DNA from: Somniosus microcephalus
Lineage: Eukaryota
Assembly: GCA_052327205.1 (NCBI GenBank)
Contig: CM126204.1
Location: 43,958,001 to 44,022,000, forward strand
Direction: 5' to 3'
Length of the DNA stretch: 64,000 nucleotides
The notes beneath the pieces were generated by a model that saw only the letters and a list, made by a program, of their open reading frames with translations, was not told where the DNA came from and did no database searches. Positions 300 through 5,205 of this stretch are shown in pieces. Each line of letters starts with the position of its first letter. Within the stretch, counting starts at the first letter, position 1. Position numbers and translations under genes: made by a program.

Positions 300-554
300 T
301 GTAAAGTCTGTGGGTTGTACTGTTAATAACGACACAGACTTCAGGAGTAACAAACAAACAGGTCTTTACTATTCGAAGGTCAGGGCGAATCTGCCCCAGC
401 AATCCTGCCACAACACTTATATACTGGTGTGGTCACTGTCGGTATTACAGTACACAGAAGCCAAACAAGTAGTGCCACACCTAAAGTAGCTCTCTTAAAG
501 GTGAACGGTTACATACAATAGTTTCCTTAAAGGTAGACGGGTACATACACTACA
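300..554 (-). repeat. 3' LTR (255 bp)
   Basis: Matches 4951-5205 except for two C/T differences (agtacac/agtatac; tagctct/tagttct); preceded on the - strand by the PPT. Confidence 0.95.
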
Positions 555-555
555 A

Positions 556-567
556 TCCTCCCTTTTT
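556..567 (-). promoter_or_regulatory. Polypurine tract AAAAAGGGAGGA
   Basis: Purine run on the - strand 1 nt before the 3' LTR TG. Confidence 0.9.
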
Positions 568-929
568 AGCTTATTACTTAGAGTCCCATTAACATACATA
601 TCTTCAACTTCATATAAAACACTTTACAGATATAATCTCGGTGGGAAACAGTTCACAAAGTCAGTCTCTGCGGGAACAGTTCACAGATTCAGTCTCCGAT
701 CTTGACTTGGTCCGAACAACATCTCTTTGGTGTAGCCGGTTCACATGGATAGTGTGACTCCTCCATAGCCTTTTCCTTGACGTAACAGCTTGAACTTTCG
801 TCCTGTTGAACCGGCAGTGCCGACTTTTATAACCAACTGGCTGTCTTGATAATTTCCCACTTTTCAACTAATTTCGCTCCTTTCGTAGGTCCCCTCCTGA
901 GCTGGTAGAAGTGATAATATTTTAGATAG

Positions 930-2065
930 TTATTGTCTTCTGCCTCTTCTTTTTCTTTTCTGCCTTTTTGAGACTCTCGGGGCTCCTTTCTCGGCTGCCA
1001 GCTGTAGCGCCACCAACTCTCTATGTTCCTTAGACCTTAAGTGTTTCATCCTGATTTCAGCACTTTGGGAGTTTTCCTCACAAACTGGGCAGACCAGATC
1101 CTCGTAATATTCAGTGTCACTCAACAGGTCATGGTAATATTCGGGGTCGTCCTGAGTTAGGCCAGCGAGAGGGCCTTCTACTTCCTCCTTACCCATCTGG
1201 ACGTTAGCCGACTGTGGTTCCTTCCCTAGACATCTTTCTTGAAAAGACTTCCTCATACATTCATATTCATCACGCTCTTCCTAGGTTGTCTGCCATTCCT
1301 TCGCTACTGTCCTCATTTGTGAGTTCAATACCTTCCCTTCCATCGGGGATTGCGTTATCCGGCTATTTACTCCTACTGGAGTAGCTGTTTCCCCATCCTT
1401 CTGTTCAATTTGACGTAATTCAGCGTCCTTTTGGCATCCTTGTAAAAGCTGTGTTGCCACCTCAGCTATCTCCATCCCTTTTGGAAGCTCCGAATTCCTT
1501 CCCTTTGAAGCCTGAAGCTCGTGTTTCCCTTGTGGAGTCTTGTCACTCTTCCTGTGAAGGAGTTGGCTGGTCGTTAACTCTTCCCCGGGGACACTGTGGA
1601 TCAGCTTCTTCTCTATTTCATCCACCTTTCCCTCTGGTACTTGGGTTTTAAGCGCTCGAAGAAGTTGCGCCTTGATGCTCTCTAGCTCCAGTTCAGGGGC
1701 CATTCTTCCAGTCTCTGTTTCTCTTCCAGTTGCCTTTCCTTCCACTGCCCGGATTCCCAGTTGACTGTTCTTCAAGTTGTTGAACCCTGGTCATTTCCGC
1801 CTCATATTTGTCTTGGGTTTCCTTCAGTACTTTTGAGTTCTTGAACCTCTTGGATTCCATGTTCTGCCATGTCTTCCACCTCCAATTTTTCATCGATGGA
1901 TGGAATCTCTACCGATGAGTCTGTCTTGGCCTGGAGCTCCTCAAACATTTCCTGCATCCTTTGGACTTCTTGCTCATGTTCAACCTTTAGTTGCTCATAT
2001 GCTTTCACTAAAACTAGCTTTTCGGAGGTTGCCGAGTTAACCCCCTCCAGAATTGTAGCCTGGGC
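930..2065 (-). pseudogene. Disrupted C-terminal continuation of the element polyprotein (coiled-coil, C2H2 finger, basic tail)
   Basis: The frame stays open after TAG 2066-2068 (AQATILEG...KAYEQLKVEHEQ). Apparent 1-nt shifts near 1832 and 1765 join it to ORFs 1693-1893 and 1281-1775. TAG 1281-1283 is in frame with ORF 930-1256 (CPVC-x12-H-x5-H, KRQKRKRRGRRQ). Confidence 0.7.
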
Positions 2066-4049: not shown

Positions 4050-4470
4050 TACGCTTTCCCCACAGTGGACAGGTTCAGCCGCTGGCTGGCTTCCGCACAG
4101 CTCCCCTTACTCGGCTCTGTCTTTCTCTCCCGCTCACACGGCTCTACCGGCGCTGGGTACACCCCGTTCACGGATAACAGTTCAGCCGCTGGACTGGCTC
4201 TCGCGCAGTCTCTCTCCCCTTGCTCGGCTCTGTCTCTCTCTCCCACACGTTCGGCTCTACTGGCGCTGGGTACCCCGTTGGCGGAGAACAGTTCAGCCGC
4301 TGGACTGGCTCTCACGCAGTCCCTCTCCCCTTGCTCGGCTCCGTCTCTCTCCCACACGTTCAGCTCTACCGGCGCTGGGTACCCCGTTGGTGGAGAACAG
4401 TTCAGCCGCTGGACTGGCTCTCGCGCAGCCTCCTTTGGTCGGCTCTGCCTCTCCCACACGCTCGGCTCCC
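4050..4470. repeat. About 110-bp GC-rich tandem repeat (~3.5-4 copies) in the element leader
   Basis: TTCAGCCGCTGG recurs at 4074, 4181, 4292 and 4401 (periods 107, 111, 109). Confidence 0.9.
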
Positions 4471-4939
4471 GTTCGCCTCCCAGCCCTCACGCAGTCCGGT
4501 GCTTCCCTCCCCGGCTGTGGCTGAGTTTCTCTCTTCCCGCGCCTGCTCCCGGTCTCAGCGCTTCGTGGCTTCGGTCGCTGCCCGGCTTTTCCCGCCGATC
4601 GTGGTCCGGCTATCTCACGACGCCGTTGGACCCGACTTCCTGACCAGCTCTGCTCCCCATCGACCGTGGTCGAGTGCACAGCCCTTATCCTCCGGATTTC
4701 GTTACACTTTCCCCTACTCACAGTCTCTTCGGCCGCCTTGTTTCCTGCTGATCGGCTCACTCCGCACCGTGGTAGAAGGGTAGTCAGTGCCTGTTGCTGC
4801 TGGAAGCTTTTGTTGCTAAAGTCTTCCTCCTTTCTATTGCTGCAGCCTCGTGTTTTCTCCCAGCATAACGACGAGGGCGGTTGCCTCTCTTCGACGCTCT
4901 TTAGTTGCTTTGGTAGTCTTGCCGCAGGGTACGATCGGA

Positions 4940-4949
4940 CTCGTCGCCA
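4940..4949 (-). promoter_or_regulatory. Primer-binding site TGGCGACGAG, complementary to the 3' end of tRNA-Ser(GCU) (...CUCGUCGCCA)
   Basis: 1 nt inside the 5' LTR boundary; 10-nt match to the recalled vertebrate tRNA-Ser(GCT) 3' end; this PBS is typical of Mag-clade Gypsy elements. Confidence 0.85.
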
Positions 4950-4950
4950 C

Positions 4951-5205
4951 TGTAAAGTCTGTGGGTTGTACTGTTAATAACGACACAGACTTCAGGAGTA
5001 ACAAACAAACAGGTCTTTACTATTCGAAGGTCAGGGCGAATCTGCCCCAGCAATCCTGCCACAACACTTATATACTGGTGTGGTCACTGTCGGTATTACA
5101 GTATACAGAAGCCAAACAAGTAGTGCCACACCTAAAGTAGTTCTCTTAAAGGTGAACGGTTACATACAATAGTTTCCTTAAAGGTAGACGGGTACATACA
5201 CTACA
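4951..5205 (-). repeat. 5' LTR (255 bp) with TATA-like TATATAA (- strand, ~5068-5074) and an AGTAAA poly(A)-signal variant
   Basis: Direct repeat of 300-554; followed on the - strand by the PBS. TATA and poly(A) calls are motif matches only. Confidence 0.93.

What the first reader, a model, noticed from the sequence alone, without database searches (positions are those of the whole stretch)
300..5205. Recently inserted Gypsy element in which RT/RNase H/integrase is replaced by a coiled-coil plus RNA-binding zinc-finger cargo fused to Gag-protease
Seen: all cis-signals are intact (TG..CA LTRs 253/255 identical, CTTCT TSD, PBS, PPT), and Gag with two CCHC knuckles and the protease are open. Right after the protease (LLGREWIKKI) there is no RT (no YxDD), RNase H or DDE core anywhere in the remaining ~2.1 kb. 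Rejoining two in-frame TAGs (2066, 1281) and two apparent 1-nt shifts (~1832, ~1765) gives one ~950-codon frame, 3793 to 930: Gag-PR-coiled-coil-C2H2-basic tail. Known: non-autonomous Gag-only LTR elements and host-gene capture by LTR elements exist. Inference: this is a family that builds its own capsid, borrows RT/IN from an autonomous Mag partner, and carries a proteolytically releasable accessory protein. I do not recognise this architecture from vertebrate Gypsy elements.
Basis: partly seen in the sequence, partly recalled or inferred. Interest (0 to 1): 0.9.

Follow-up and report, generated by a model that had tools for sequence, protein, structure and literature searches.

The report
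Retrotransposon family built from circular RNAs
This is one copy of a large jumping-gene family whose reverse transcriptase and integrase genes are replaced by an in-frame patchwork of spliced host-gene pieces, two of them likely copied from circular RNAs; it likely borrows the missing enzymes from intact relatives and has spread host exons to more than a thousand places in the genome.

Summary
The element has intact LTRs, PBS, PPT and a 5-bp target duplication, Mag-type Gag and protease, and no RT, RNase H or integrase. It is a family: 17 of 30 top-scoring copies have one open frame (956 aa from the ATG). The cargo is not a novel protein but a mosaic of spliced host exons: an STK10/SLK kinase, an ANKRD24/ankycorbin gene, optineurin and a jaz-type zinc finger. 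I located the first three host genes in the genome, and one likely finger exon. Two independent captures carry exact back-splice joints (1,437 and 903 exact genomic matches, controls 0), and the STK10 piece runs once round a circle, so circular RNA templates are likely. An RT-bearing family is up to 98% identical to the simplest cargo copy on both sides of the swap, with microhomology at the joints. Sister families carry long optineurin or titin-like Ig cargo. Selection keeps the frame open (0 fixed stops, 9.3 expected) but barely constrains cargo residues (0.77 of neutral, against 0.14 for Gag-protease). An accessory-protein function is therefore not shown. The family is transcribed, strand-biased in one of two RNA runs.

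The parts
295..299 (+). Target-site duplication CTTCT (left copy)
300..554 (-). 3' LTR, 255 nt
556..567 (-). Polypurine tract
758..829 (-). Untranslated remnant of the 5' part of STK10-like exon B, the far end of the captured circle (76% to host)
930..980 (-). Lys/Arg-rich tail and stop; in the sister subfamily the end of this tail overlaps STK10-like exon A read in a shifted frame
1004..1091 (-). Decayed C2H2 finger; second half matches a likely host exon at G000:C1:4792918 (78% over 50 nt); gene name DNAJC21 is recalled, not tested
1234..1583 (-). Optineurin piece, spliced, linear exon order (71-84% to host exons at G000:C17)
1577..2191 (-). 5' part of the large ANKRD24-like exon, starting exactly at its splice acceptor (86% to host G000:C13:62861849)
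2192..2257 (-). Complete 66-nt downstream ANKRD24-like exon placed before the large exon; back-splice joint at 2192/2191
2262..2630 (-). STK10/SLK-type piece: parts of exons B, C and D, spliced, with an internal deletion (71-79% to host G000:C8)
2640..2945 (-). Aspartic protease (DTG at 2899)
2946..3793 (-). Mag-type Gag with two CCHC knuckles (3223, 3163) and linker
3794..4939 (-). Long 5' leader with three ~110-nt repeats (4124-4428) and a 54-nt duplication (3878-3985)
4940..4949 (-). Primer-binding site core TGGCGACGAG, exact in 7 of 12 RT-bearing relatives
4951..5205 (-). 5' LTR, 255 nt
5206..5210 (+). Target-site duplication CTTCT (right copy)

Best explanation
This is a recently inserted, broken copy of a non-autonomous Mag-type Gypsy family in which RT, RNase H and integrase are replaced by an in-frame mosaic of spliced host exons, likely gained by repeated template switching of a helper's reverse transcriptase onto co-packaged host RNAs, at least two of them likely circular RNAs. 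Inferred order: an RT-bearing element switched from its RT start onto an STK10-type circle and back to its integrase tail; later switches inserted optineurin, a zinc finger, an ANKRD24-type circle or titin-like Ig domains inside that cargo. The family would make its own Gag and protease and borrow RT and integrase from RT-bearing relatives. Selection keeps the frame open to the end, likely to protect the RNA from nonsense-mediated decay or to keep a basic C-terminal tail, while most cargo residues drift.
For: SHOWN. (1) Host origin: all 7 library hits of the cargo are host-type proteins, 6 of the ANKRD24/ankycorbin type and 1 optineurin (names for 5 of 7). Host genes with introns lie at C13, C8 and C17. 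Sister copies are 97.4-97.8% identical to the ANKRD24-like exon over 648 nt, 95-99% to STK10-like exons and 96-99% to 5 of 6 optineurin exons. (2) Back-splice joints: the downstream donor joins the upstream acceptor to the base in both genes, with 1,437 and 903 exact genomic matches and reversed controls 0. In L093 the STK10 piece starts inside exon B, runs C-D-A (interrupted by the Ig insert) and ends in exon B, the ends overlapping by 14 nt. (3) Progenitor: an RT-start motif has 12,303 matches, control 0; 12 of 12 fetched have RT/IN hits; 8 of 12 are 95.6-98.2% identical to cargo copy L088 up to the joint, and L190 and L192 match it again at 97.8-98.6% from the integrase tail through the LTR. 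A 12-nt microhomology marks the entry, and 7-9 nt three other joints. (4) Recent spread: 7 of 10 LTR-chosen copies have LTR pairs 253-255 of 255 identical with 5-bp duplications, and none of the 10 has YxDD. (5) Frame kept: 0 fixed stops among 208 fixed cargo differences, 9.3 expected, P=9e-5; 3 of 3 fixed indels in frame against 9 of 28 private ones. (6) RNA: 14,789 of 16.65 million records in run X15 lie on the element, across all 30 bins and mostly on one strand. INFERRED: co-packaging, use of the helper's enzymes, the order of captures, and the reason the frame is kept.
Against: The host circles were not seen as RNA; only their joints were seen, in DNA. The ANKRD24 joint has TTCAG on both sides, so a template switch onto a partly spliced precursor could mimic it; the STK10 joint shares only AG. 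The window's subfamily is only 72-81% identical to the 12 RT-bearing copies in Gag-protease and 68-84% in the LTR, so its present helper is not identified. Gag-protease trees reject one clade for the cargo elements (p-AU 3e-57); I read this as exchange with helpers, but it weakens a simple single-line history. A weak amino-acid signal remains (cargo p=0.041; finger plus tail 0.46 of neutral, p=0.031, uncorrected), so 'frame only' may be too strong. Run X16 shows both strands, most reads are 90-99% alike and so come from other copies, and the RNA runs may be of another species than G000.
Confidence: 0.72

Rival explanations
1. The cargo is a working accessory protein: the protease would release host-derived coiled coils that act as decoys (for example against optineurin-dependent autophagy of particles) or as a nuclear-targeting and RNA-binding tail.
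For: The frame is kept across five captures. Uncalibrated dN/dS of the cargo is 0.48 (0.36-0.65). Finger plus tail is 0.46 of neutral. Basic tails arose by two routes: an insertion in the integrase tail in the optineurin and Ig families and, in part, a shifted frame of STK10 exon A in this lineage.
Against: With private mutations as yardstick the cargo does not differ from neutral (135/70 against 166/76, Fisher p=0.55; Gag-protease p=7e-8). Each coiled-coil piece is at 0.79-0.88 of neutral. Modules are interchangeable between families. The finger has decayed from 32 bits in L211 to 13.6 here.
Confidence: 0.2
2. The scrambled exon order came from linear RNAs, by template switching between spliced and partly spliced transcripts, by trans-splicing, or by splicing within the element's own RNA after two separate captures.
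For: TTCAG microhomology at the ANKRD24 joint. PMC4897178 notes that non-colinear joints can arise by other routes. Optineurin was captured in ordinary linear order.
Against: Two independent genes each show a base-exact donor-to-upstream-acceptor joint. The STK10 joint shares only AG. The STK10 piece begins and ends at the same place in exon B, which a circle gives in one pass.
Confidence: 0.15
3. The cargo is a degenerate pol or a one-off rearrangement of this single copy.
For: The window copy itself has two stops and two frame changes.
Against: No pol similarity; host exons match at the DNA level; 17 of 30 copies are open; 1,437 copies of the joint.
Confidence: 0.01

Closest known systems
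LTR-mediated retrocopies in animals (PMC5131818; abstract and passages seen) and maize Bs1 as described there
   Same: Spliced host exons inside an LTR element, microsimilarity at switch points, pieces from several parent genes, secondary retroposition, often in frame.
   Different: There the cases are few (for example 5 of 7 zebrafish retrocopies; Bs1 has one to five copies). Here the captures replace pol, stay fused to an intact Gag-protease under strong selection, nest inside each other, and number over a thousand copies per joint.
circRNA-derived pseudogenes (PMC4897178; part 1 of 2 of the text read, no supplements)
   Same: Non-colinear exon-exon joints at splice sites; the 33 mouse circRFWD2 copies have LTR sequence enriched in their flanks.
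   Different: That paper calls the mechanism mysterious and the copies pseudogenes. Here the circle-type joints lie inside a translated-frame retrotransposon with its RT-bearing source family at hand, the entry microhomology is visible, and there are 903 and 1,437 exact joint copies from two genes.
TR-GAG non-autonomous retrotransposons of plants (PMC8704663; passages seen)
   Same: LTRs, one ORF with Gag, no RT or integrase, mobilised by a related autonomous element.
   Different: No host cargo is described in the passages seen; plant elements.
Mag-type Gypsy elements (K02A2.6-like proteins; Mag features from PMC5408684 passages)
   Same: Single frame without gag-pol frameshift, two adjacent zinc knuckles, 48% identity over Gag-protease to P0003.
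   Different: RT, RNase H and integrase are absent. The extra ORF3s of rotifer elements in that paper are separate genes added beside an intact pol.
Acutely transforming retroviruses with gag-onc fusions (recalled, no call)
   Same: Replication-defective, helper-dependent, host coding sequence fused in frame behind gag, sometimes from two genes.
   Different: No envelope, inherited in the germ line, cargo pieces are coiled-coil fragments without catalytic domains, and no effect on the host cell is shown.

Membership tests
Ty3/Gypsy LTR retrotransposon, Mag type | TG..CA LTRs, PBS, PPT, short target-site duplication | tested here: met
Ty3/Gypsy LTR retrotransposon, Mag type | Gag with two adjacent CCHC knuckles, in one frame with the protease | tested here: met
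   feature from PMC5408684 passages
Ty3/Gypsy LTR retrotransposon, Mag type | PR-RT-RH-IN pol (autonomous member) | tested here: not met
   met in relative L192, one 1460-codon frame with YxDD
Ty3/Gypsy LTR retrotransposon, Mag type | Placement in the Mag clade by an RT tree with named references | not tested
   Mag label rests on K02A2.6-like best hits, architecture and recall
LTR-mediated retrocopy (Bs1 type) | Intron-less host exons between the two arms of an LTR element | tested here: met
LTR-mediated retrocopy (Bs1 type) | Microsimilarity at the switch points | tested here: met
   12 nt at RT to STK10; 7-9 nt at three other joints, weaker at two more; read by eye, no shuffle control
LTR-mediated retrocopy (Bs1 type) | Secondary retroposition with shared switch points | tested here: met
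   ANKRD24 joint in 30 of 30, 9 of 10 and 23 of 23 loci of the two subfamilies
circRNA-derived retrocopy | Non-colinear joint exactly at donor and upstream acceptor | tested here: met
circRNA-derived retrocopy | No genomic duplication that gives the same exon order | tested here: met
   one copy of the 66-nt exon in 100 kb of the ANKRD24-like locus; one copy of exon A in 100 kb of the STK10-like locus
circRNA-derived retrocopy | The parent circle exists as RNA | not tested
TR-GAG | Single ORF limited to Gag (with or without protease) | tested here: not met
   569 further residues of host origin follow the protease
zf-C2H2_jaz / zf-met RNA-binding finger | Score above the Pfam cut-off | tested here: not met
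   13.6 bits against 22.6 in the window; met in sister family L211 at 32 bits

The most novel reading that the evidence does not exclude
A vertebrate Gypsy lineage runs a modular cargo slot in place of pol, fills it from co-packaged circular RNAs and mRNAs, and tests the resulting Gag-protease-host fusion proteins in thousands of copies; the protease-released cargo (optineurin, STK10 and ANKRD24 coiled coils, a finger and a basic tail) helps the element, for example as a decoy against autophagy. This would be a germ-line counterpart of gag-onc transduction and a large-scale exon-shuffling engine fed by circRNAs.
Probability: 0.2. Interest if true: 0.96.

Novelty: new variant of a known kind. 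Interest (0 to 1): 0.86.

Why it matters
How circular RNAs get copied into genomes was left open in PMC4897178. This family preserves the whole event twice: source element, entry microhomology, back-splice joint and exit, in 903 and 1,437 exact copies. It points to LTR template switching as the route and makes it testable by sequence alone. It also shows LTR gene capture on a scale well beyond the cases in PMC5131818, with at least five host genes shuffled in frame behind Gag-protease. Practical effect: thousands of intron-less STK10, optineurin, ANKRD24 and titin-like pieces will confuse gene annotation, RNA mapping and circRNA calling in this genome and its relatives (three species labels hold the cargo). 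Whether the fusion proteins or their RNAs affect the host genes is open.

Tried and rejected
Word-based protein searches found nothing for cargo residues 385-575 or for the finger piece; the HMMER search of representatives did. The Atlas gave only generic finger clusters, and the PDB search of the finger no match below E 0.89. PF21884 led to a gene whose exons look like DNAJC2 (recalled), not the finger's source. The exon with the first half of the finger was not found in 19.5 kb upstream of L210, and a 9-residue peptide search of papers gave 0 hits, so the name DNAJC21 stays recalled. STK10 rather than SLK is also recalled; the calls show only a PKK-family kinase gene with a second paralogue at C8:2203144. 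A single-sequence AlphaFold model of the cargo had mean pLDDT 51.7 and only long helices, so no fold search was run. The raw dN/dS of 0.48 was set aside as evidence of protein function after calibration. Loci are top scorers for their queries and are biased towards intact copies; the 10 LTR-chosen copies are the less biased set. First-look candidate counts (2,513; 22,954; 16,568; 30,304) are not copy numbers. Three RT-bearing elements met by chance in host regions were rejected as direct progenitors at 67-68% identity. No RNA holder was listed in the indexed runs. No tRNA gene in the window; the priming tRNA was not identified. Earlier findings of the scan: none. Literature: searches listed no paper describing this family (titles and abstract starts seen only); subscription journals, Repbase and Dfam were not searchable, and no supplements were read, so an existing repeat-library entry is possible.
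Full report
Observation. The element spans 300-5205 on the - strand. Its LTRs are 253 of 255 identical, with TG..CA ends and a CTTCT duplication, a PBS core and a purine tract. 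Gag has two CCHC knuckles and is followed in frame by an aspartic protease. The best relatives of residues 1-385 are K02A2.6-like Gag-Pol proteins, up to 50% identical; the alignment with P0003 ends at residue 387, just past the protease. Pfam finds no RT, RNase H or integrase in the 9 window frames scanned or in an open copy. The window copy has stops at 2066 and 1281 and frame changes near 1835 and 1765.

It is a family. The window lies in a 6.45-Gb genome, likely a shark from the closest named relatives of its host genes (inference). A 401-nt cargo query returned 40 of 40 scored places at 99-100% identity. Of 30 loci fetched, the window's own included, 17 have one 967-codon open frame, 956 aa from the ATG. 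Of 10 copies chosen by the 5' LTR alone, 7 have frames of 934 codons or more, 7 have LTR pairs 253-255 of 255 identical with matching 5-bp duplications (one has an indel, two lack a whole 3' LTR in the stretch fetched), and none has YxDD.

The cargo is host RNA. HMMER against 1.84 billion representatives gave 7 hits: six of the ANKRD24/ankycorbin type and one optineurin. I then located the host genes. ANKRD24-like, C13: a sister subfamily (A0, L102-L124) is 97.4-97.8% identical to the large exon over 648 nt, the window's subfamily (A1) 86%. STK10/SLK-type kinase, C8: sister copies 95-99%, window 71-79%. Optineurin, C17: six exons joined in linear order in L062, five at 96-99% and one at 86% with gaps; window 71-84%. 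Finger: a sister family (L211) has a version that passes zf-C2H2_jaz and zf-met, and a likely host exon starting at a splice acceptor matches its second half at 87.6%. The names STK10 and DNAJC21 are recalled. Window order after the protease: STK10 2630-2262, ANKRD24 2257-1577, optineurin 1583-1234, finger about 1091-1004, basic tail, stop at 930.

Two back-splice joints. In the host the order is large exon, 165-nt exon, 66-nt exon. In the element the end of the 165-nt exon and the whole 66-nt exon come first and join the large exon at its acceptor, to the base (window 2192/2191). No second copy of the 66-nt exon lies in the 100 kb fetched. For STK10 the host order is A, B, an intermediate exon, C, D. 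Copies L088 and L093 enter inside B, skip to C, run through D and join D's donor to A's acceptor exactly; L093 goes on, after an Ig insert, through the end of A into B and stops 14 nt past its entry point. That is one turn of a circle less an internal deletion. The joints occur 1,437 and 903 times as exact 24-mers, reversed controls 0. Against: the ANKRD24 joint has TTCAG on both sides, and no circle was seen as RNA. The window's lineage has lost the STK10 joint (0 of 30 loci) but keeps both flanks of the circle, one of them in the 3' UTR at 829-758.

Source and helper. A motif for the RT start matches 12,303 places, control 0. All 12 fetched have RT/IN hits; L192 has one 1460-codon frame with YxDD; LTR pairs are 97-100% in the 10 of 12 where both were in view. 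Eight of 12 are 95.6-98.2% identical to the simplest cargo copy, L088, up to the joint, and L190 and L192 match it again from the integrase tail through the LTR. The RT start and STK10 exon B share 12 nt at the entry; three other joints share 7-9 nt (read by eye). So the cargo replaced the inside of pol. The window's subfamily has drifted to 72-81% from these elements. A Gag-protease tree of 31 natural copies rejects one clade for the cargo elements (p-AU 3e-57): A0 and A1 group with L199 at 92/95, and L132 with L194 at 100/99. Shared cargo breakpoints suggest one cargo origin with later exchange of Gag-protease, as co-packaging would allow; this is inference.

Sister families. Searches with optineurin and with the PKK family returned elements with the same Gag-protease and other cargo: long optineurin pieces (L061-L080), three to four Ig domains whose best PDB match is titin, an extra CxxC module after the protease (L086, L098) and the better-kept finger (422 motif matches).

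Selection. Pairwise dN/dS between natural A1 and A0 copies is 0.09 for Gag-protease and 0.48 for the cargo. Calibration removes most of the cargo signal. Fixed differences are 135 N to 70 S against 166 to 76 private ones (p=0.55), while Gag-protease gives 20 to 59 against 143 to 95 (p=7e-8). With a neutral expectation from non-coding and fourfold sites (107 private changes), the cargo is at 0.77 of neutral (p=0.041), its coiled-coil pieces at 0.79-0.88 (each p>0.2), finger plus tail at 0.46 (p=0.031, one of four pieces, uncorrected), Gag-protease at 0.14. The frame is what is kept: 0 fixed stops against 9.3 expected (P=9e-5), and 3 of 3 fixed indels in frame against 9 of 28 private ones. Protection from nonsense-mediated decay or a need for the basic tail are my likely reasons; neither was tested.

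Expression. The cargo DNA is held under three species labels. In RNA run X15, 14,789 of 16.65 million records lie on the element at 92% or more, in all 30 bins, mostly with the first mate on +, which means the element's sense strand if the library is of the usual stranded kind. X16 has 11,884 of 14.4 million, on both strands. Most reads are 90-99% alike, so they come from other copies, and the species may differ from G000.

Comparison and verdict. It works like the LTR-mediated retrocopies of PMC5131818 and maize Bs1 (passages), meets the junction test for circRNA-derived copies of PMC4897178 (part 1 of 2 read), and resembles TR-GAG elements in keeping Gag only (passages). What I found in none of the listings is their union: pol replaced in frame by a likely circRNA copy, serial nested captures from at least five host genes, and spread to over a thousand copies in a vertebrate. 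Repeat libraries and subscription journals were not searchable. Verdict: real, a new variant of LTR gene capture, interest 0.86; an accessory-protein function remains possible (about 0.2) but is not shown.

Noticed in passing
L081 = G000:C3:354658271-354658946 (-): Intron-less copy of the 3' exons of the STK10-like gene, 98-100% identical to five host exons, with an open frame to the natural stop; its flanks were not examined.
   Followed up: partly
L129-L130, G000:C13:62867070-62871961 and L131-L132, G000:C13:62888800-62893200: The ANKRD24-like host locus itself holds an A0-type copy in antisense in the intron between the 165-nt and 66-nt exons, and another cargo element further on.
   Followed up: partly
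L086:538-3243 (-) and L098:655-2721 (+): An extra module of about 140 aa with a CxxC motif sits between the protease and the STK10 piece; source unknown.
   Followed up: no
L093, L094, L097, L100: Families with three to four titin-like Ig domains inserted inside STK10 exon A; the host titin locus was not located.
   Followed up: partly
window 3878-4463: The 5' leader holds three ~110-nt repeats and a 54-nt duplication; reads show copy-number variation here. Possible packaging or dimerisation signal, untested.
   Followed up: no
L062:2860-2907 and L124:2770-2805: Arg/Lys-rich C-termini arose by two routes: an insertion in the integrase tail, and in part a shifted frame of STK10 exon A.
   Followed up: partly
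L195 and L198: Two RT-bearing copies are inserted in tandem-repeat arrays.
   Followed up: no
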